This document shows, piece after piece, positions 13,264 through 61,343 of a DNA stretch of 64,000 nt (position 1 is the first letter of the stretch; every line of letters begins with the position of its first letter). The notes under the pieces were generated by a model that was given only the letters and a program-made list of their open reading frames with translations, was not told the origin of the DNA and did not search any database. The translations under genes and the position numbers were made by a program. The stretch lies in NCBI GenBank assembly GCA_036339465.1, contig JAYZAY010000062.1, positions 32,001 through 96,000 of the forward strand. The letters are read 5' to 3'. The DNA comes from Myxococcota bacterium (lineage in GTDB: Bacteria > Myxococcota > XYA12-FULL-58-9 > JABJBS01).

Positions 13264-14022
13264 TTAAGGAATGAGTTGACTGAAAGCGCTCGCAATTTCT
13301 TGAGTGGTTGGATGGAATTTAATGCTCAAAGCCAGGCATATCTGAGAACCAAAATAGAGGGGAGATCCCCATAGCTTGTTTCCAAAGCCAGCGTTGGCGA
13401 AACGGTTTCGAGCCACAGAAATATCGGATAAAAGAAAACCAACCGTGCCGACACCGATCAGCACATTGCGGCTCGAAACACTGGTGCCGATTCCCAGGCT
13501 TACCATGAGACAAATCGCAACCAAATAGGCCATCACGGGGATCTTTAGGTTTTTGTCAATTTGGGACCACAGGCCGCTAACGATATGGTAGCCAAGGCTA
13601 AGGAGGGCCACGAAGCAGAGAAGGCTGGCCAATACATTGGGCTTTCGGTAAAAGAATGCATAGCTATAGACGACATGTGCAAAGAGGAACGCAAAGATCC
13701 CCAGAAAGAAGGCGAATTTATTTTTGGGGATTAAGAGCACATCTCCGAGCCAAGATAAAATAAGTCCGATAATGATCCATGTCCCATAAAACGAATGGAC
13801 GTTGGTGCATAGAAACCCCAGTGCTACAAATCCGGTGGCTGCAAGGGGTTTAAACAGCCATTTTCTGGATTGGTTGTTGTCGTATTCAGCCTTAAGGAGC
13901 AGGGCCACAGAGAGCATGGTGGTTATGACGAGGAAGAGAATCCAACCGTTTTCCTGGCCTATATTTTCAAGCGACACTTTGCTTCCTTTGGGTAAATGTT
14001 CGGCGGTGCTCTTCAATGGCAA
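13264..14022 (-). CDS. YhhN/lysoplasmalogenase-family membrane protein (start uncertain)
   Basis: FKPLA, GDVLL, FLFAHVVY, FLLSD, LYFGSQ; multiple TM helices. Confidence 0.85.
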   Translation of the reverse strand: MPLKSTAEHLPKGSKVSLENIGQENGWILFLVITTMLSVALLLKAEYDNNQSRKWLFKPLAATGFVALGFLCTNVHSFYGTWIIIGLILSWLGDVLLIPKNKFAFFLGIFAFLFAHVVYSYAFFYRKPNVLASLLCFVALLSLGYHIVSGLWSQIDKNLKIPVMAYLVAICLMVSLGIGTSVSSRNVLIGVGTVGFLLSDISVARNRFANAGFGNKLWGSPLYFGSQICLALSIKFHPTTQEIASAFSQLIP

Positions 14023-14917
14023 CTTGGATGGTGGTTTTATGGATTTCTACGATATCGTCAATGGATTTGGCATAACCTCCCGACATGGTCAGTGCAAGGG
14101 GCAGTTGTCGGGCGAAACACCAGTTAAAAACTTTTTCATCTCGTTTGCGCAAACCATTTTTGGACAGTTTGAGGTGTCCAAATTGGTCGTATTCATACGG
14201 GTCAGCTCCGGCGAGGTAAAAGACGAAATCCATCTGGAATCTGCTTTCAATGATGGCCAAGCTTTCTTCCAGAGCTTGGAGATAGGGTTCGTCTGTGGTG
14301 TTGGAGGGGAGGGGAAAGTCTAAATCGCTCTCTTCTTTATGATAAGGGAAGTTATCGTTGCCGTGGATCGAGAATGAAAAGATGGAGTCATCCCCCTGAG
14401 TGAGTTCCGCGGTTCCATTGCCTTGATGGACATCAAGATCGATGATGAGAATGTTCTTGATTGCGAATTTTGCTTGAATCACTTTCGCCGCAACCATCAC
14501 ATCGTTGAACACACAAAAACCTTCTCCGCGATCCGCAAAGGCATGATGCGTTCCCCCAGCGAGGTTTATACTGAGTCCGTCTTCAATGGCTGTGGTAGCA
14601 GCTTCAATGGTTGCTCCCACAGACCGCCGAGAACGTTCGACCATTTCAGGAGACCAAGGGAATCCGATGCGCCGCATTTCTCGAGGCGTTAGTGTTCCGT
14701 GAATCACACGTTGAACGTAGTCATGGGTATGAACTTTTTGTAGGTCTTCATCGCTCGCTGCTTGGGGGATAAAGAATTGGTGGTCGGGTAGAATTCTTTG
14801 GGCTAGAAGTGCTTGCCTGAGCCGGAGGTATTTTTCCATTGGGAACTTATGTTCTTTGGGTAGGGGTAGAACAAAGTTGTCGGTGTAATAAGCTTTGACC
14901 AAAGGTTTCTCTATCAT
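13967..14917 (-). CDS. Zn-dependent histone deacetylase family protein
   Basis: HKFPMEKY, GGTHHA, GFCVFND, DLDVHQGNGT, GADP and GGY catalytic/metal motifs are all intact. Confidence 0.95.
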   Translation of the reverse strand: MIEKPLVKAYYTDNFVLPLPKEHKFPMEKYLRLRQALLAQRILPDHQFFIPQAASDEDLQKVHTHDYVQRVIHGTLTPREMRRIGFPWSPEMVERSRRSVGATIEAATTAIEDGLSINLAGGTHHAFADRGEGFCVFNDVMVAAKVIQAKFAIKNILIIDLDVHQGNGTAELTQGDDSIFSFSIHGNDNFPYHKEESDLDFPLPSNTTDEPYLQALEESLAIIESRFQMDFVFYLAGADPYEYDQFGHLKLSKNGLRKRDEKVFNWCFARQLPLALTMSGGYAKSIDDIVEIHKTTIQVAIEEHRRTFTQRKQSVA

Positions 14918-15121: not shown

Positions 15122-16060
15122 ATGCAAATGGCTTTGGATGAGGGCACTCGCCAAGAGATTATCAATACTATCGGTACCGATAATGTGGTTTTGTTTATGA
15201 AGGGGTCGAAAGGGATGCCTCAATGTGGATTTTCTGCCACGGTGGTACAGATCCTCAATGAATTGGTCGAGGACTACGCCACGGTGGATGTCCTTTCGGA
15301 TCCGGCTCTTCGCGAGGGGATCAAGGCCTATTCAAATTGGCCGACCATTCCACAACTCTATATTAAAGGTGAGTTCATTGGTGGTTGTGACATCGTTAAA
15401 CAGATGTATGAGTCTGGAGACCTAGAAGGAAAACTCGATGTTGTATTGGAGCCGGTTGAGCCACCCTCAATCACGGTGACGGATGCTGGTGCGAAAGCCT
15501 TGAATGACGCCATAGAGGCAAACCCCGACGGGCCTTCCTCTTTTCATTTGGTCGTAAACGAACATTTTGAACCGGGTTTACAGTTTGGTCCTGAATCGGC
15601 ACGAAAGCTCAAAGTGGAAGCAAATGGGGTGACGTTCTTCATTGATCGATCCAGTGCGCCAAGAGCAGAGGGTATTACGATTGATTTTATGGAGGGTGCC
15701 GACGGTAGTGGCTTTAAGATAGAGAACCCTAATGCCCCGAAGCCTGTTGAACAGCTGAGTGTTGGGGAAATCAAGGCGAAACTCGATGCAAAAGAGTCTT
15801 TTGTTTTTATTGATGTTAGAGGGGAAGATGAACGATTGACTGCTACCATTTCGGGAACCCAACTCTTAGACGATGGGTTTCGAGAAGAGCTCACCAAGAT
15901 GGACCGTGATACCTATCTCGTTTTTCATTGCCACCATGGTGGTCGTAGTCAACAAGCGGCTGACCATTATCGCAACGAGGGTTTTTCACGTGTTGCCAAC
16001 ATGGTGGGGGGAATTGACGCATGGTCTCTAGAGATAGATTCGGATATTCCACGCTACTAA
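15122..16060 (+). CDS. grxD: Monothiol glutaredoxin (Grx4) fused to an IscA/HesB-like domain and a rhodanese domain
   Basis: CGFS, WPTIPQLY, GGCDI; middle domain ITVTD..FKIENPNA; rhodanese DVR..CHHGGRS..GGIDAW. Confidence 0.9.
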   Translation: MQMALDEGTRQEIINTIGTDNVVLFMKGSKGMPQCGFSATVVQILNELVEDYATVDVLSDPALREGIKAYSNWPTIPQLYIKGEFIGGCDIVKQMYESGDLEGKLDVVLEPVEPPSITVTDAGAKALNDAIEANPDGPSSFHLVVNEHFEPGLQFGPESARKLKVEANGVTFFIDRSSAPRAEGITIDFMEGADGSGFKIENPNAPKPVEQLSVGEIKAKLDAKESFVFIDVRGEDERLTATISGTQLLDDGFREELTKMDRDTYLVFHCHHGGRSQQAADHYRNEGFSRVANMVGGIDAWSLEIDSDIPRY

Positions 16061-16109
16061 TACGTGCTCCATAGACATTGACACTTACTTCGCTTCCTAG
16101 CTTCTTTAC

Positions 16110-16430
16110 TCCGGCCTTTACCTTTGTGCTGGTTGAGCTCCAAGCTCAAGCTACTTGCCTGCTCGTTTCCGTTAGGTCTGAGGTCTTCGGCGCGACCTAT
16201 GCCGCCATCCCCCCCCCCCTGAATGGGAGACCGTATTCAATGACTCTCGTGGTTGGTTTGGTCGGGCGAATCAGAACGCCATGGACCTGAGGGTGTAGAG
16301 GTTTACCAATTGTATGAAGAATTTTCTCAGTGCTCTCCTCTGGCTGAAGCACGGGGCATTTAGAATGGTGCTCTTTCGTGCGTTGCTTACTCTTGTCATA
16401 CTTTTGAGGGAACTTGGTTTCTACACCCTC
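16110..16430 (+). ncRNA. Candidate structured non-coding RNA of unknown family
   Basis: Five or more consecutive hairpins, including an 11-bp perfect closing stem 16289-16299/16420-16430 with nested helices. G-U pairs favour the + strand. Confidence 0.4.
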
Positions 16431-17152
16431 CCACACTGATGCCACCTATCCTTATTTTGGCGTCGGATTTACCTTCTTTAGCCCACAATCGTTTTGCGTA
16501 CGGTAATGGGAAAAACCATTGTGGAATATGCACCGCATCTTTCGGGCTTCCGAGGGTCTGGCATGGTGGCAGAGAAGCATTGTCGACCAATATTGTATAA
16601 CCCCGTTGTTGGCGGTACTCCGGTTGCGTTGATATGCGCATTGCAGGGCACAGGTGTTTTGCATGGCAAGGGTATTGACGTAAATCGAGCGATGAGAACC
16701 TCGCTCTTCACTTTGGGGATATTCAAGATACTCTCTAGCATCTGGGTGGCAAAAGACCTCTTCGGATTTTTTCATTGGGATCTGCACAACTGCTTTGTTG
16801 ATGTCGACCGATGGATTGGCAATGGGAACTGTTTGTGTTTTTTTAGTGGGCGTCGGCAAGTTGCTCTTTCGGTATTCAAAGTGCAACAGCAGGAATACAC
16901 GTCAGATTTGGCCAAAAACGAACTTTTTATTGATAAAACATAGAAAAATGACCCTTCAATGTCAGTTGAAGTCCATTCTCTTCTTTCCTCTGAATTGTCT
17001 CATGGTTTAAAAGGGCTTGATTATGTGGATAGCGTATTTCTGTGGTGTCTGCGTTGCGAAGCAATAATGCGTCGTACGTTGATGGCATGTTGAGTGGAAT
17101 CGTTATTTGCTCACCCATTACAACGTGACGATGATTAACTCGGAGGAAGAAA

Positions 17153-17437
17153 ATGGCCGCAAAGAAAGCAGCATCTAAGAAAGCAGCACCTAAGAAAGCA
17201 GCACCTAAGAAAGCAGCGCCTAAGAAAAAGCCAGCAGCTAAGAAAAAACCAGCAGTTCAGGACATGGTTCTTGTTGTAAGTAAGACCAAGGACGCACTTA
17301 AGGCGAGTGGCTGTAATGTTGCGGGCGATGCTCTTGATGGGTTGAATGCGCTCGTGCACCAGCACATTGCACAAGCGGCCAAGCGAGCTGAAGCCAATGG
17401 TCGTAAGACCATTCGTGCTCACGATTTCGTTGCCTAA
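17153..17437 (+). CDS. Bacterial histone-fold protein with a Lys/Ala/Pro-rich N-terminal tail
   Basis: Residues 38-94 (VLVVSKTKDALK...GDALDGLN...AKRAEANGRKTIRAHDF) show the short bacterial histone fold with the RxTxxxxD motif. SD GGAGG at 17142-17146; terminator downstream. Confidence 0.9.
   Translation: MAAKKAASKKAAPKKAAPKKAAPKKKPAAKKKPAVQDMVLVVSKTKDALKASGCNVAGDALDGLNALVHQHIAQAAKRAEANGRKTIRAHDFVA
17162..17227 (+). repeat. 15-bp coding tandem repeat (AAGAAAGCAGCACCT-like) encoding KKAAP/KKAAS units
   Basis: About 4 near-identical units within the histone tail. Confidence 0.9.
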
Positions 17438-17463
17438 TAGGTTTCGAAATAGTGTTATCGGTG

Positions 17464-17490
17464 AAAAGGGCGACTTCGGTCGCCCTTTTT
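17464..17490 (+). terminator. Intrinsic terminator (possibly bidirectional) after the histone gene
   Basis: AAAAGGGCGAC-TTCG-GTCGCCCTTTTT, a perfect stem with a cUUCGg loop and U tract. Confidence 0.9.
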
Positions 17491-47979: not shown

Positions 47980-50900
47980 GTGATGAATTCAAGAACCAGA
48001 CAAAAAACCAAGGTTGATAGTGCAATGGGCAAAGGTTACCACCTTCCAGACTCTGTGGGGCAATTAGTATGGTCTCAAGCCGATCCCAGCTTAGGCGTCG
48101 GTGTGGTCACATGTATTAACGGTTATCGCTTTCGGGTCCAGTTTTTTCGTTTGGAAGGCGAACGTATTTACGCGCAACGTTCCAACGATGCAACGCTCAT
48201 GCGTTATCTGATTCAGCCGGGAGAAAAAGTGCGTTGTCAGGATGGCAACGCGCGATTGATTAAAGGAGTGGCGGGCGACGGTCCGAAAAAGGGAGAACCT
48301 TTAAGTTATCTATTGGATGATGATGAGGTTTATCAGGAGTCGCTTCTTTGACCCGAAATGAAAGATGTGGGTGCCAAGGAGCGTTTGGCATCGCTACAGT
48401 TGGTTCACCCAGAGGTTGTTCGTTCACGATTGAGGGGCCTTAATTTAGAGCAGGCCAGCAGCCGTCGGTCGATTTCTTCGATACTTGGAACTCGAGCCCA
48501 TTGGTTGCCCCATCAGATCGACGTGGCGGTATCTTCGGTGGGGCAAGATCCCGTGCGATTATTGCTTTCCGACGAAGTTGGATTGGGCAAGACCGTCGAA
48601 GCGGCGATGATTTATGCGGGGCTTCGGGCTGAAGGACGTGCCAATAAGGTTTTGATTTTGACACCCGATTCCTTGGCCATTCAGTGGCTGGGGGAAATTT
48701 ATCGGAAAACCCACGAGCTCATGGTGCTTTTTGACGACGAGCGGTATGAGGATATTCGCGTTGTTCATGGCGATGAGAATCCTTTTGAAGCCCATCAGCG
48801 ATTTATCGTTTCCTTGGACCGGGTAGCTGGCGATGAAATGTTGGCTAAGGACGCCGCTTCGGTTGAATGGGACTTGGTCATTATTGATGAGGCCCACCAC
48901 CTTCGGTGGGCTCCCATTGGGGATGCAAATCTCCGCTATGGTCTTTCAGAGAGTCTGGCGAAGCAAGCTCGGCATCTTCTCTTGTTGACGGCCACCCCCA
49001 TGGCTTTAGACCCTGCCGAATATCAGGCTTTATTGCGGTTGTTGAACCCTGAACGTTTTGATGATCCGACCCAATTTGAGAAAACCCATCTGCGGATTTC
49101 GCGACTCTCAGAGTTGGCTCGGAAAGTGGTGGCATGGAAATCCGATGAATGTGTGCTTACAGAAGACGACCTTCGCAACATTCGTGATGAGTTAGGTGAC
49201 TTTGAATCTGACCTGAGTTTAGTGGAGTCGCTCGCGGTTACGGTGGCGACCGATGGTGATCGAGAGGAAATTGCGAACCAAATTCTTCTGGCGTTACAAG
49301 ATAGGCACGGACTTTCCGAGTATGTGGTTAGAAATCGCCGTGGTCCGGTGGGTGGATTACCGGTTCGTAAACCCATTACGATTCCGCTGACGCCGTCACC
49401 TCTCCAAGAAATCTTGTTGGAGGTTGGTGAAAGTGTTGTTTTTGAATTGGTGTCGGAAATTGAATCGCCGCGGGACCGGTGTGATCAGATGGGTCGGATG
49501 CTCCGAGCTATGTGGGCAACCCCCGGTGCGCTATTGGAAGTCGCGCGAGCTATTAGTCCGGTTTTAGTCCAACAACTTGAACCCCATGTCAAAGATGTGG
49601 TGACTGCTCCTCCGGATGACGAGGGGCTTCCCACGGGGGATTCTAGGCTTCGTTGGTTGGTGGAGTTTATTCGGGAGCAACCCAATGAAAAGCTCTTGGT
49701 ATTTGTGGAAAGCTCCATTGCGGTTCGTAGTTTGAAAGAACACCTATCGCTTTTTGTAGGCGATAAAATTGCGGTTTTTTACCGCGACCTCTCGGCGAGA
49801 GATCAAGATCGGCAGGTGGCGTGGTTTAGAGATCCGCAGGGACCTCAGATTATGCTGTCCACTGAAGCAGGTGGTGAAGGGCGAAACTTCCAATTCTGTC
49901 ACAGACTTGTCCTTTATGATTTACCATGGCGTCCTGCGACCATTGAGCAGCGAATTGGTCGAATTGACCGGGTGGGCCAGGAACACGACGTACAGGTTTT
50001 TGTGCCTTTCTTTCGTTCTGGTTACGAAGCCGCGATTCTCAAGGTTATGGAACGGTCCATTGGGGTTTTAGAGCGGACCGTGGGTGGAATTGATCACGCA
50101 CTCGAATATGTGAGTTTGCGTTTGGGTGGGCTAATCTACGACAATGCCGGTCCCGAAGAGTGGCAGGAACTCTATGACGAAACCGAGGAATTGGTCGGTG
50201 AAGCACGGTTAAGGATTGAACGCTCGGCGGATCCTATTTTGGATTTGGCAAGTTATGATCCTAAACGCGCAGCTTCGGTTCTTGCGCGGGTGCCCGAAGA
50301 GCTAGAAACAGAAATCGAGAAATTTATTTTAGGCTATGCCTCATACTGCAAATTGAATTTGACCCCTCAGGGGCATGATCTTGTGGGCGTTGACGGTGGT
50401 CCAAGGGCGGCGACCACCGATTCTGAGGGAGATTATTACGGAACCTTTAGACGTTCTTATGCCCTTGATCACGAAGAGGTGGATTTTCTATCCTTTGGGC
50501 ATCCATTGGTTGAACAAGCGCTAGATTGGTCGAAGGAATCAGTGGAGCAGAGTGCAGGTTTAGCGCTTCGGCGTGGAGCTTCCCGTGATGGTGCGTTCTT
50601 TTTATGGGTTTTCGGCGTTGATTTTCCCGAGGGCTCTGAACGGGTGAGCCCTTACTTTAATGCTGGATATTTTACATATGCATTGGACGAGGAAGGCAAT
50701 CGTCATCGAGAATTAGAGACCATGCTGATGGAGGATGAGCGTGAGTTAGAGAAAATGGATCCTCGGCCCCTAAGGTCTAACCAAGAGCGGTGGCGTCGAT
50801 TGGTGGAGCAGAATTTCGACAAAGCTTCCAAGCTGTCTGAAACGGCCCTTGAAAAACTCCGGGCCGATGCAGGTTTTTCCATTGACGAAACTTTTGAGAA

Positions 50901-51102
50901 GCGAAAAAGGTGTCTTTTACGTACCCAAGCGCGTGAACTGGCCAGTGGCGATATTCCGAATGTTGAAGCGGCTCACGAAGCGCAATTGGCGGCGATGCGT
51001 GCGGATTGGGATGGTAATAAACTCGCCGTAACCAATGTGCGAATGAAACTTTATCTTTCCCTGGCGGTAAGAATGGTGAAAAACTCCCACGTTAGTGGCT
51101 AA
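47980..51102 (+). CDS. rapA: RNA polymerase-associated SNF2-family ATPase, interrupted by one in-frame TGA at 48349-48351
   Basis: N-terminal ORF resembles the RapA tandem Tudor region (GQLVWSQADPSLGVGVV). The same-frame downstream ORF has DEVGLGKT, DEAHH, TATP, GGEGRNFQF, EQRIGRIDR. Confidence 0.88.
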
Positions 51103-59482: not shown

Positions 59483-59764
59483 GTGGTTCAGCCCATGATG
59501 AGAGGTTTGATTGTTGCTATTGTCCTGATGGGCACAGTTGGGCCTGTACATGCCGACACCGGGAAATTGTCGCCGAAATCCGCAGCTCCAGTGATAAAAC
59601 TTGAGGGCTTTGAGGTCCGGGTGGATGGGGCTCTACCCATGTCATTGTATTTGGAGCGACGGGCGAATCAACGATTGGCACTTCTCTTGAGAGTTCGGGT
59701 CAGATTTAGAAATGAGTTAATTCAGAGTTTTGAAATGTTCTTGGACCGATATGACAGTTTTTGA
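59483..59764 (+). CDS. Small exported protein (GltF/CglF-like)
   Basis: Signal peptide; LLRVRVRFRNELIQS pattern; lies directly before the FHA-TonB_C gene. Confidence 0.55.
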   Translation: MVQPMMRGLIVAIVLMGTVGPVHADTGKLSPKSAAPVIKLEGFEVRVDGALPMSLYLERRANQRLALLLRVRVRFRNELIQSFEMFLDRYDSF

Positions 59765-61343
59765 AGAGCTAGAGCTATTCCTCGCCGTTTATTCCGAGGG
59801 GAATGTTAGAGAGTACCGTTTTGCTTCGGGACTCAACCCACGGATTCGTCTCGGTGTGGGGTATGGCAATGAGTTAGAGCTTGTGGGTAACCGAATTGGT
59901 CGAGTTCATGCTGTTTTGGAAGTAGGTGGCGGTACAATCTCTTTGGTCGATATGGGGACGATACTGGGGACTAAGGTTAATGGTCTTTTGGTGGAGCGGG
60001 TGCTTTTGAATCATGGAGATGAGATAGGTATTGCCGATGTGGTGATTCGGTGTGGGATCAATGAACGTATCATTACCTCTGAAGCTACGACGAATAACGG
60101 TCAAGATATGGGCTTTGGTTCAGAGTCGGGTGGGAATGAAGATGTCGAAAAATATCCTGTGGTTGATCTGCAATTGTTGTCGGGTGGGGTGGCTGTTCAA
60201 TATGAGTGTTTGTCTATGGGGGAAACCTTTAGGATTGGTTCGGGGAAAAGGTCCGATTTCCTTTGGCCTATTACCAATTTTGAGGAAACAGATTTTTCCT
60301 TGATAGAGGGGGATGGCCAAGAAAAATCAGTGCTTAAGCTTTTACCTGGAATGGTGGGGGTCTGTAATCGTCAGGGGGGATCGCATCGGATCGATAATCA
60401 ATATTTCCAGCATGGCTCAGAAATTTCGATACCCCTGAACCCTCAAGATTTTGGGAGCCTACTTTTGGAGGGTCTAGAAATCCGGTACCGGGTAGAGCTG
60501 TTGCCCGCCTTGACATCCATCGGATTCACGACGCGTGTTTTTTCGTATTTCTCTCAGATTTTGGTGGCCAGTTTGGTGTTCCACCTCATCTTCATTTTAG
60601 GTCTTATGAGGATTCCGATTTCTGACCCATTTCCCGATCATGGTTTTGTACAACCCCAGGACAGATTTGCGCGGTTATTGGTTTCAAACGAGACATTTCA
60701 ATCCCCAGCGCATGTAAAATTCGGGTCTCATGTGTTGACGAAGAAAAACCGAGTTCAGTTGCAGAAATTAGACCTAAAAAAATTGGTGAAAAAGAGGCGA
60801 AAGGAGGCCAAGAAATATCTGGGACGCGCGATGCATCGATTGAGTCATTCGATTACAAGACCATTGTCTGCATTGGGTTCCTTGGAAAGTGCAGGCGTAG
60901 CGGCTATGGGCTTTGAGCCAAGTCATGGGGGTGGCAAAGCATCCTATCTTGTGGTTGAGGATTTAGATAAAACGGAGGCATTTTCATTGGTCTCTGTTGT
61001 GGGTGCGGATGCTGATGGTGGACGAGGCGGTTTAAGTGAGATGAGTTTAACACAACGATATCAAAAGACCGTTCAAAGACAAGTTCACCGATACCTAGAT
61101 GATATTCAGCGTTGCTATATTACCTTGAAGCCGGTCCATGGTGACAGCCACGAAGAGATCAGTTTGGTATGGGAGATATCTCAGAGTGGTAAAGTAAAGG
61201 GAAAACCAAAGATTCATGGTATGTATAAAGGGTTCCAGCGGGTTAGACACTGTATGCAAACAGCCATTAAGGCTTGGCAGTTTGAAAGCCATGCTTTGGG
61301 CAAGAGTATAAGAGTAGAATATACGTTCCGATTGACGGGTTAA
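59751..61343 (+). CDS. FHA domain + TM + TonB/TolA C-terminal-like protein (GltG/PglI-like)
   Basis: FHA-like RVHAVL..DMGTILGTKVNG; TM SLVFHLIF; C-terminal IQRCY...WEISQSGKV...C...WQF...VEYTFRL. Confidence 0.75.
   Translation: MTVFEELELFLAVYSEGNVREYRFASGLNPRIRLGVGYGNELELVGNRIGRVHAVLEVGGGTISLVDMGTILGTKVNGLLVERVLLNHGDEIGIADVVIRCGINERIITSEATTNNGQDMGFGSESGGNEDVEKYPVVDLQLLSGGVAVQYECLSMGETFRIGSGKRSDFLWPITNFEETDFSLIEGDGQEKSVLKLLPGMVGVCNRQGGSHRIDNQYFQHGSEISIPLNPQDFGSLLLEGLEIRYRVELLPALTSIGFTTRVFSYFSQILVASLVFHLIFILGLMRIPISDPFPDHGFVQPQDRFARLLVSNETFQSPAHVKFGSHVLTKKNRVQLQKLDLKKLVKKRRKEAKKYLGRAMHRLSHSITRPLSALGSLESAGVAAMGFEPSHGGGKASYLVVEDLDKTEAFSLVSVVGADADGGRGGLSEMSLTQRYQKTVQRQVHRYLDDIQRCYITLKPVHGDSHEEISLVWEISQSGKVKGKPKIHGMYKGFQRVRHCMQTAIKAWQFESHALGKSIRVEYTFRLTG

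What the first reader, a model, noticed from the sequence alone, without database searches (positions are those of the whole stretch)
17153..17437. Bacterial histone with a eukaryote-like lysine-rich N-terminal tail
Seen: a 94-aa ORF with a strong SD and its own terminator. Residues 1-34 (MAAKKAASKKAAPKKAAPKKAAPKKKPAAKKKPA) contain 14 Lys and no acidic residues. Residues 38-94 end in RKTIRAHDF, the histone-fold RxTxxxxD motif. Established: this core resembles, from memory, the short bacterial histones Bd0055/HBb of Bdellovibrio and HLp of Leptospira. The characterised ones lack such a long basic tail, while KKAAP repeats are typical of H1-like proteins and mycobacterial HupB tails. Inference: a core-histone/linker-histone hybrid whose tail could bridge or condense DNA and carry modifications. 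Tailed bacterial histones may already appear in surveys, but I know of no functional characterisation.
Basis: partly seen in the sequence, partly recalled or inferred. Interest (0 to 1): 0.9.

Follow-up and report, generated by a model that had tools for sequence, protein, structure and literature searches.

The report
Lysine-tailed face-to-face bacterial histone gene
This small gene of an uncultured marine bacterium encodes a genuine bacterial histone with a long, floppy, lysine-rich front tail, but it belongs to an already catalogued histone family in which such tails are common, so it is a clean example rather than a new kind of protein.

Summary
Window 17153-17437 (+) is a 94-aa ORF with a GGAGG Shine-Dalgarno 6 nt before the ATG and a 12-bp hairpin terminator. 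Residues 37-94 are an alpha3-truncated histone fold. The AF2 model matches HLp of Leptospira perolatii best (TM 0.95, rmsd 0.8 A), ahead of HBb/Bd0055. The three HLp tetramer residues are conserved (R78, N82, R84), so it is a face-to-face (FtF) histone, not an HBb-type dimer.

Residues 1-36 (14 Lys, no acidic residue, about +13.5) are predicted disordered and are encoded by a 15-bp tandem repeat. The tail is very probably translated. The SD precedes the first ATG, none precedes Met38, and 56 of 79 relatives carry an in-frame basic extension of 10 aa or more.

This is not new. Schwab et al. 2024 report positively charged tails on most bacterial FtF histones, and their source data include 94-aa members. 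Tail function remains untested. The best guess is four polycationic tails per DNA-wrapping tetramer that add affinity and bridge DNA. No RNA or tetramer test was possible. Verdict: new member of a known kind.

The parts
17142..17146 (+). Shine-Dalgarno GGAGG, 6 nt upstream of the first ATG
   Evidence: Read directly. One search scored it 5 of 6 against AGGAGG at spacing 6. The 20 nt before Met38 scored only 4 of 6, with no GGAG.
17153..17437 (+). Histone gene, 94 codons plus stop
   Evidence: It is the only match to the family profile in the 4.17-Mb genome.
17153..17260 (+). N-terminal tail, residues 1-36. It is Lys/Ala/Pro-rich with no acidic residue and is predicted disordered.
   Evidence: One search gives the composition and a charge of +13.5. 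One search gives pLDDT 43-58 over the first 30 residues and no secondary structure before residue 42.
17162..17245 (+). 15-bp tandem repeat (5.4 copies, 87% matches) that encodes the pentapeptide repeats of the tail. An overlapping 18-bp repeat (2 copies) lies at 17220-17255.
17264..17266 (+). Internal ATG (Met38) at the start of the fold. It is the alternative start proposed as the refutation.
   Evidence: One search shows no SD before it. An ATG at this position occurs in 61 of 79 relatives, but only 7 of those 61 have an SD-like score of 5 or more of 6.
17276..17302 (+). Helix alpha1 (residues 42-50). S43, K44, K46 and K50 are identical to the DNA-contacting HLp residues S14, K15, K17 and K21.
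   Evidence: DSSP. alignment, combined with the residue lists read and an inferred numbering offset of +29.
17330..17395 (+). Helix alpha2 (residues 60-81), containing R78
   Evidence: R78 aligns with HLp R49 and is conserved in at least 90% of the 91 homologues.
17396..17431 (+). Loop 2 and the truncated alpha3 (residues 82-93). It holds N82, R84, K85, T86, R88 and D91 (the RxTxxxxD / RD clamp) and F92.
   Evidence: One search shows N82, R84, K85, T86, R88 and D91 invariant. One search gives helix 89-93. One search names HLp R49, N53 and R55 as the conserved tetramer residues.
17463..17490 (+). Intrinsic-terminator-like hairpin followed by a T run
   Evidence: Analogous hairpins follow the gene in relatives L085, L087, L088 and L089 (read by eye).

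Best explanation
The gene encodes a nucleoid protein of the bacterial face-to-face (FtF) branch of the alpha3-truncated histones. The solved representative of that branch is HLp of Leptospira perolatii. Residues 37-94 form the histone fold. By homology the fold dimerises and two dimers join through R78, N82 and R84 into a ring-like tetramer. That tetramer would wrap roughly 60 bp of DNA without sequence specificity. Residues 1-36 are translated and form a disordered polycationic tail of about +13.5. The tail leaves the fold at the N-terminus of alpha1, next to the DNA-contacting S43-K44. A tetramer would therefore carry four tails, about +54 of its roughly +63 net charge. These tails most likely neutralise phosphates on wrapped or neighbouring DNA, raise affinity, and bridge or condense DNA through weak multivalent contacts. 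This is what the lysine-rich tails of mycobacterial HupB/MDP1 and Deinococcus HU do. The tail is built from 15-bp tandem repeats. It changes length and repeat unit between lineages, so it appears to evolve by repeat expansion and contraction under selection for charge rather than for sequence. Shown here: the fold, the family placement, conservation of the interface and DNA-contact residues, the disorder and charge of the tail, and the SD position. Inferred: tetramerisation, wrapping, and every function of the tail.
For: Fold. The AF2 model from 91 sequences has mean pLDDT 76.6, rising to 88-95 over residues 41-94, with helices at 42-50, 60-81 and 89-93. Foldseek ranks HLp first (9qt1/9qt0, TM 0.95, rmsd 0.8 A, 44-45% identity). 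HBb follows at TM 0.83-0.88, then HTkC at 0.86-0.88.

Sequence. phmmer against the PDB gives HLp at E 3.2e-9, HBb at about 1e-4 and HTkC at 0.0039. The family profile gives HLp 68 bits, HBb 48 and HTkC 41.

Tetramer residues. HLp R49, N53 and R55 align with R78, N82 and R84. N82 and R84 are invariant and R78 is at least 90% conserved among the 91 homologues. HBb has Ser and Asp at the first two positions (alignment), which agrees with Schwab's criterion.

DNA contacts. Six of the nine HLp contact residues named are identical here: S43, K44, K46, K50, G58 and R88.

Tail translated. GGAGG lies 6 nt before ATG1 and none precedes Met38. In 79 species-level relatives the SD-supported start gives a tail of 10 aa or more in 56, and 50 of those 56 have net charge of +3 or more. 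Ala is the second residue in 73 of 79, and the SD score is 5 or more of 6 in 70 of 79. The four same-family genomes with a match carry 33-37-aa Lys/Ala/Pro tails with different repeat units.

Repeats. One search covers the window. Tail-coding repeats with periods of 9, 12, 15, 18 or 30 bp occur in L001, L006, L009, L015, L071, L077 and others.

Other points. The gene is monocistronic, with its own SD and terminator. Its base composition is native. The genome's three HU/IHF paralogues have no such tail.

Precedents for tail function. These are a DrHU N-terminal tail preprint (abstract) and the HupB, MDP1 and HupS/CobB1 papers (search listing only).
Against: No Pfam or NCBIfam model reaches its cut-off. 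PF00808 and PF09123 do not appear even at E up to 10. Membership therefore rests on PDB, profile and fold matches. One HLp interface residue differs (S52 is A81 here), and three DNA-contact positions differ (A13/V42, T27/V56, K54/G83). An identical 57-aa form starting at Met38 exists as a gene call in the protein collection (P0002). The HLp authors judged the shorter of two annotated forms authentic in Leptospira, so long annotations can be wrong. My start-codon rule is crude. Two rules disagreed in 15 of 81 regions, and lysine codons mimic SD sequences. There is no transcript, ribosome or peptide evidence for this organism.
Confidence: 0.8

Rival explanations
1. The tail is not made. Translation starts at Met38 and gives a 57-aa tail-less histone, and the lysine-rich stretch is a 5' leader.
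For: A 57-aa, 100% identical protein starting at Met38 is on record (P0002). A Met at this position is conserved, with an ATG in 61 of 79 relatives. For HLp the shorter annotated form was judged authentic.
Against: GGAGG sits 6 nt before ATG1, and nothing SD-like precedes Met38. Only 7 of the 61 relatives with an ATG there have an SD-like score of 5 or more of 6. An untranslated leader would not stay in frame, free of stops and acidic residues, beginning with Met-Ala in 73 of 79 lineages, while its length changes in multiples of 3 bp.
Confidence: 0.06
2. It works like HBb/Bd0055. It would be a dimer that bends DNA or coats it as a filament, not a wrapping tetramer.
For: A same-family genome carries the label 'uncultured Bdellovibrionales' (L001 is identical to the G004 gene), and HBb comes from that phylum. 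HBb is also a significant sequence and fold match. The tetramer was not tested here.
Against: HLp scores higher by sequence, profile and fold. The R and N that Schwab et al. say bacterial dimers lack are present and conserved, whereas HBb has Ser and Asp there.
Confidence: 0.12
3. The protein is not chromatin-associated. It would be a basic RNA- or ribosome-binding or polyanion-binding small protein that merely uses a histone fold.
For: Lys/Ala-rich tails also occur on ribosomal and RNA-binding proteins. This is general knowledge, and the review PMC11764897 appeared in the listing only. No localisation data exist.
Against: Six of nine DNA-contact residues of HLp and the RD clamp are conserved. 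The relatives HLp and HBb are shown DNA binders.
Confidence: 0.02

Closest known systems
HLp, face-to-face (FtF) histone of Leptospira perolatii (PDB 9QT0/9QT1/9QT2; PMC12701072)
   Same: It has the same alpha3-truncated histone fold (TM 0.95, rmsd 0.8 A, 44-45% identity over 56-57 residues). The tetramer residues R49/N53/R55 correspond to R78/N82/R84. The RD clamp and six of nine DNA-contact residues are the same. Both are small stand-alone genes.
   Different: HLp was studied as a 63-aa protein with only about 7 disordered N-terminal residues. This protein has a 36-residue tail of about +13.5. Unlike Leptospira as described, this genome also has three HU/IHF genes. The SMC/MAP/DUF350 neighbourhood described for Leptospira is not seen here.
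Tailed bacterial FtF histones catalogued by Schwab et al. 2024 (PMC11390915)
   Same: The paper states that tails are common on bacterial FtF histones, have no conserved sequence, and are mostly positively charged. The source data of its Supplementary Fig. 13 list bacterial FtF lengths up to 127 aa, including two entries of 94 aa. Its stated phyla include Bdellovibrionota, Planctomycetota and Myxococcota.
   Different: Nothing fundamental differs. This tail is in the upper range: only 3 of 79 relatives reach 37 residues or more. Its tandem-repeat origin and family-level conservation were worked out here. The paper's supplementary PDF with Figs 13, 19 and 20 was too large to read, so it may already show this.
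HBb / Bd0055, bacterial dimer histone of Bdellovibrio bacteriovorus (PDB 8CMP, 8FVX, 9EZZ)
   Same: It has the alpha3-truncated histone fold (TM 0.83-0.88, 32-33% identity) and the RKT motif. It probably comes from the same phylum.
   Different: HBb lacks the R and N tetramer residues, having Ser and Asp there. It has essentially no tail, and it bends or coats DNA as a dimer.
Lysine-rich tails of HU-family proteins: mycobacterial HupB/MDP1 (C-terminal) and Deinococcus radiodurans HU (N-terminal)
   Same: Each is a disordered Lys/Ala/Pro-rich low-complexity tail appended to a small DNA-binding fold. The DrHU tail gives low-affinity multivalent binding that aligns and bridges DNA (abstract). The HupB tail is described as 'eukaryotic-like' and indispensable (title in listing). 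Acetylation control of HupS by the deacetylase CobB1 is a precedent for regulation (title in listing).
   Different: The globular fold is unrelated (HU/IHF, PF00216, rather than a histone fold). The resemblance is functional and compositional, not membership.
Eukaryotic linker histone H1 (C-terminal domain) and core-histone N-terminal tails
   Same: The Lys/Ala/Pro composition resembles the H1 C-terminal domain (recalled). The basic tail sits N-terminal to a histone fold, as in H3, H4, H2A and H2B.
   Different: There is no winged-helix globular H1 domain. The tail has no sequence similarity to any core-histone tail. No modification is known. The fold is the truncated prokaryotic type.

Membership tests
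Bacterial face-to-face (FtF) alpha3-truncated histones (HLp type) | Histone fold with a shortened alpha2 and an alpha3 cut to a single turn | tested here: met
   The AF2 model has helices at 42-50, 60-81 and 89-93. Foldseek gives TM 0.95 and rmsd 0.8 A to HLp.
Bacterial face-to-face (FtF) alpha3-truncated histones (HLp type) | RxTxxxxD motif / RD clamp in loop 2 | tested here: met
   R84, T86 and D91 are present and invariant in 91 homologues.
Bacterial face-to-face (FtF) alpha3-truncated histones (HLp type) | Dimer-dimer interface residues R48 and N52 of the FtF logo (HLp R49, N53, plus R55) | tested here: met
   R78, N82 and R84 align with them. N82 and R84 are invariant and R78 is at least 90% conserved. 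The criterion was read.
Bacterial face-to-face (FtF) alpha3-truncated histones (HLp type) | Closer in sequence to FtF histones than to the bacterial-dimer cluster | tested here: met
   phmmer gives HLp at 3.2e-9 against HBb at about 1e-4. The profile gives 68 bits against 48. No CLANS-type clustering against the published sets was done.
Bacterial face-to-face (FtF) alpha3-truncated histones (HLp type) | Forms a stable homotetramer (torus) that wraps about 60 bp | not testable with these tools
It needs AF-multimer, SEC-MALS or TPM.
Bacterial dimer histones (HBb/Bd0055 type) | Lack of the conserved R48 and N52 interface residues, with no multimer larger than a dimer | tested here: not met
   Both residues are present here. 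HBb has Ser and Asp at these columns.
Linker histone H1/H5 | Winged-helix globular domain flanked by basic tails | tested here: not met
   There is no linker-histone Pfam hit at E up to 10. The only folded part is a histone fold.
HU/IHF family with lysine-rich tail (HupB/MDP1, DrHU) | Bac_DNA_binding fold (PF00216) | tested here: not met
   PF00216 does not hit this protein. The genome's three PF00216 genes lie elsewhere and are tail-less.
Pfam histone families CBFD_NFYB_HMF (PF00808) and DUF1931 (PF09123) | Score above the curated gathering cut-off | tested here: not met
   Neither family is listed at E up to 10. Only a doublet relative, P0052, carries a precomputed PF09123 hit. This is a limit of those profiles and does not argue against the fold.

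The most novel reading that the evidence does not exclude
The tail may be a regulated, eukaryote-like chromatin switch. In this reading, charge on its 14 lysines would be tuned by reversible acylation, and the compaction state of the nucleoid would follow. Possible players are the class-IV (HDAC11-like) deacylase encoded 2.2 kb upstream, whose synteny is kept in the nearest relative, or prolyl isomerases, which neighbour the histone gene in two other lineages. In addition, tail length would be set by rapid expansion and contraction of the coding tandem repeat, giving populations heritable variation in chromatin compaction. Nothing here excludes this, and nothing here shows it.
Probability: 0.1. 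Interest if true: 0.75.

Novelty: new member of a known kind. Interest (0 to 1): 0.3.

Why it matters
Bacterial histones were recognised only in 2023-2025. [quoted passage not shown] The 2024 survey nevertheless shows that basic tails are frequent on bacterial FtF histones.

A 36-residue tail of +13.5 carrying most of the protein's charge should dominate DNA affinity, bridging and condensation. It is also the obvious place to look for bacterial histone modification. This locus, and more usefully its long-tailed cultured or well-assembled relatives, gives clean constructs for a test with and without the tail.

It does not change what is known about which proteins exist.

Tried and rejected
1. 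Expression and start-site evidence. The look-up of sequencing runs listed no RNA holder. Twenty rows hold part of the stretch, 3 of them half or more of its words, and all are marine or seawater metagenome DNA. Run X20, guessed to be RNA, matched only short low-complexity pieces of the tail region with unlike flanks. The Logan contigs of X1, X2 and X4 break at the tail repeat. These runs say nothing about expression, transcript ends or repeat-number polymorphism.

3. HDAC link. The neighbour at 13967-14917 (-) is a Hist_deacetyl protein. Its homologue was found beside the histone only in L001, among the 110 loci held at that time with flanks of 1.5-6 kb. A general linkage is therefore rejected and it is kept only as a lead.

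4. Conserved neighbours. Clustering of 418 flanking ORFs gave only lineage-specific neighbours such as VIT/VWA, PEGA, cyclophilin, S49 peptidase and a permease. No acetyltransferase, SMC or MAP neighbourhood was seen.

5. The 1.1-kb gap upstream (16061-17152). It has no Rfam family at gathering threshold, no Pfam hit for its two ORFs, and is unique in the genome. It remains unexplained.

6. Promoter. The sigma-70 scan found none on the + strand before the gene.

7. Pfam and NCBIfam on the protein gave nothing above cut-off.

8. Start-codon statistics. Two automatic rules disagreed in 15 of 81 regions, so the tail-length figures are approximate.

9. A tail-length count over the 120 proteins was not obtained. 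The statement that most of them carry tails rests on reading by eye.

Full report
**What is there.**

Window 17153-17437 (+) is a 94-codon ORF. GGAGG at 17142-17146 lies 6 nt before its ATG. A hairpin with a 12-pair stem, 6 GC pairs and a 4-nt loop, followed by a T run, lies at 17463-17490.

Residues 1-36 contain 14 Lys, 13 Ala and 5 Pro and no acidic residue, with net charge about +13.5. Residues 37-94 have net charge about +2. The whole protein is 9.7 kDa with pI 10.4. The tail is encoded by a 15-bp tandem repeat (5.4 copies, 87% matches, 17162-17245), with an overlapping 18-bp repeat.

Base composition of the gene (0.50 GC) does not differ from its surroundings (0.48), so nothing suggests a foreign insert.

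**The core is a histone fold of the face-to-face type.**

Pfam and NCBIfam give nothing above cut-off. phmmer against PDB sequences finds three matches:
- HLp of Leptospira perolatii (9qt0): E 3.2e-9, query residues 34-92.
- HBb/Bd0055 (8cmp, 8fvx): E about 1e-4.
- HTkC (9f2c): E 0.0039.

A profile of 91 homologues gives 68, 48 and 41 bits respectively.

The AlphaFold2 model built on that alignment has mean pLDDT 76.6, with 88-95 over residues 41-94 and 43-58 over the first 30. Its helices are at 42-50, 60-81 and 89-93, and no structure is predicted before residue 42.

Foldseek against the PDB ranks HLp first (TM 0.95, rmsd 0.8 A, 44-45% identity). HBb follows at TM 0.83-0.88 and HTkC at 0.86-0.88. 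Archaeal and eukaryotic histones come far behind.

The literature separates FtF histones from 'bacterial dimers' by two interface residues, R48 and N52 of the FtF logo. In HLp these are R49, N53 and R55, described as conserved among tetrameric bacterial FtF histones. In the alignment they correspond to R78, N82 and R84 here, whereas HBb has Ser and Asp at the first two positions. N82 and R84 are invariant and R78 is at least 90% conserved in the 91-sequence alignment.

Of the nine HLp residues named as DNA contacts, six are identical here: S43, K44, K46, K50, G58 and R88. The numbering offset of +29 is my inference from the alignment. I therefore file the protein with the FtF group.

**Is the tail made?**

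The SD precedes the first ATG, and the 20 nt before Met38 contain no GGAG.

Comparative data agree. I dropped L034 because it is cut by the contig end. I chose starts by the best SD score. After inspection I reassigned four loci (L015, L041, L045, L075) by a second rule. The two rules disagree in 15 of 81 regions, so the figures below are approximate.

| Measure (79 loci) | Result |
|---|---|
| Median tail length | 16 residues |
| Tails of 10 residues or more | 56 |
| Tails of 20 residues or more | 19 |
| Tails of 30 residues or more | 7 |
| Tails of 37 residues or more (the window's value by this count) | 3 |
| Tails of 10 or more with net charge +3 or higher | 50 of 56 |
| Ala as second residue | 73 |
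| SD score of 5 or more of 6 at the chosen start | 70 |
| ATG at the position of Met38 | 61 |
| SD-like score of 5 or more of 6 at that ATG | 7 of 61 |

An untranslated leader would not keep frame, charge and a Met-Ala start across phyla while changing length.

Against this, an identical 57-aa form starting at Met38 exists as a gene call (P0002). The HLp authors chose the shorter annotation for their protein on SD grounds. No transcript or peptide evidence could be obtained.

**Distribution and evolution.**

The family is large:
- 172 clusters at E of 1e-3 or better in the word-indexed search, many of them named 'histone H3/H4' by JGI.
- 1588 representatives at 50% identity at E of 1e-3 or better, 255 at 1e-10 and 11 at 1e-30.

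The 80 loci carry labels of Myxococcota (especially Kofleriaceae), Elusimicrobiota, Acidobacteriota, Bdellovibrionota, Krumholzibacteriota, Planctomycetota and one Verrucomicrobiales.

The window's genome is 4.17 Mb in 102 contigs and 92.8% complete. It has this one histone and three tail-less HU/IHF genes.

Among 41 related genomes, counting G000, 25 have a match, including 4 of the 5 other genomes of the same family. Those four carry Lys/Ala/Pro tails of 33-37 residues built from different repeat units. More distant families of the same order have tails of only a few residues. One same-family gene is identical to L001, labelled 'uncultured Bdellovibrionales', which is the basis for placing the organism in Bdellovibrionota.

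Tail-coding tandem repeats with periods that are multiples of 3 (9, 12, 15, 18, 30 bp) occur in many long-tailed loci, with a different unit in each. Of the 81 gene regions scanned, 35 carry some repeat, though not all of these lie in the tail. Long tails are thus a family-level trait that evolves by repeat expansion under selection for composition, not sequence.

**How it most likely works.**

By homology with HLp, which is a tetramer in solution and wraps about 60 bp, the fold should dimerise and then tetramerise. The tail leaves the fold next to the S43-K44 'paired ends of helices' DNA contact. Four tails per tetramer would contribute about +54 charges.

The best-supported role is inference. 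The tails would neutralise phosphates and make weak multivalent DNA contacts that raise affinity and bridge or condense DNA. This is reported for the N-terminal tail of Deinococcus HU (abstract read) and for the tails of mycobacterial HupB/MDP1 (search listing only). Regulation by lysine acylation is possible; HupS/CobB1 is the precedent (title in listing only). It is unsupported here.

**Comparison with what is known, and novelty.**

Schwab et al. [quoted passage not shown] The source data of their Supplementary Fig. 13 list bacterial FtF lengths up to 127 aa, with two entries of exactly 94. By my count by eye, roughly two dozen entries are 90 aa or longer; I did not count the column total. 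The supplementary PDF with the figures themselves was too large to read.

Four full-text searches found no functional study of a bacterial histone tail. [quoted passage not shown]

Earlier notes of this scan reached the same verdict on look-alike genes in other genomes. They are not independent evidence.

The gene is a new member of a known kind. The open question, what the tail does, is real but is not opened by this locus.

Noticed in passing
window 13967-14917 (-): This is a 316-aa Hist_deacetyl (PF00850, E 7.5e-57) protein lying 2.2 kb upstream of the histone gene. It is closest to solved bacterial enzymes of about 305-319 aa (9rje at 5.8e-61, 9gz5, 9gkv), which are cited in papers on class-IV/HDAC11-like and bacterial classical deacylases (listing only). 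The gene order HDAC, Grx, histone, glycosyltransferase is kept in L001 (same family), but no HDAC homologue was found beside the histone in any other locus held.
   Followed up: partly
window 16061-17152: This is a 1.1-kb stretch between the Grx4-rhodanese gene and the histone gene. It has no convincing ORF: two overlapping ORFs of 144 and 149 aa have no Pfam hit. It has no Rfam family and is unique in the genome. In L001 the same intergenic gap is only about 290 bp, so about 800 bp is extra here.
   Followed up: partly
L005, L006, L009, L018 (directly upstream, same strand, gap about 330-370 bp); L012, L033, L035, L037, L044, L054, L060, L065, L067, L075 and others (opposite strand, mostly about 1.7 kb): A cyclophilin-type prolyl isomerase gene (PF00160) lies near the FtF histone gene in two lineages (Krumholzibacteriota-type and Kofleriaceae/Myxococcota). 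It is within 4 kb in 13 of the 81 regions and within the fetched 6-kb flanks in 23 loci. It is not near the window's histone. Kin are not independent, so this is a lead only.
   Followed up: partly
window 15122-16060 (+): This is a 312-aa fusion of a Grx4-type monothiol glutaredoxin, an Fe-S assembly (IscA-like) domain and a rhodanese domain. It is conserved next to the histone gene in L001, L087 and L088.
   Followed up: no
P0012, P0024, P0052, P0060; P0121-P0135 and others: Tail-less doublet (pseudodimer) forms of the same histone, 115-130 aa with two fold copies, are frequent among the best-scoring relatives. A 650-aa protein (P0206) carries the fold at its C-terminus.
   Followed up: no
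window 48358-51102 (+) and 59730-61343 (+): The first is a RapA-like SNF2 helicase (NF003426, E 5e-131). The second is a weak GltG (adventurous gliding motility) match. The latter is consistent with a Myxococcota/Bdellovibrionota-type organism.
   Followed up: no
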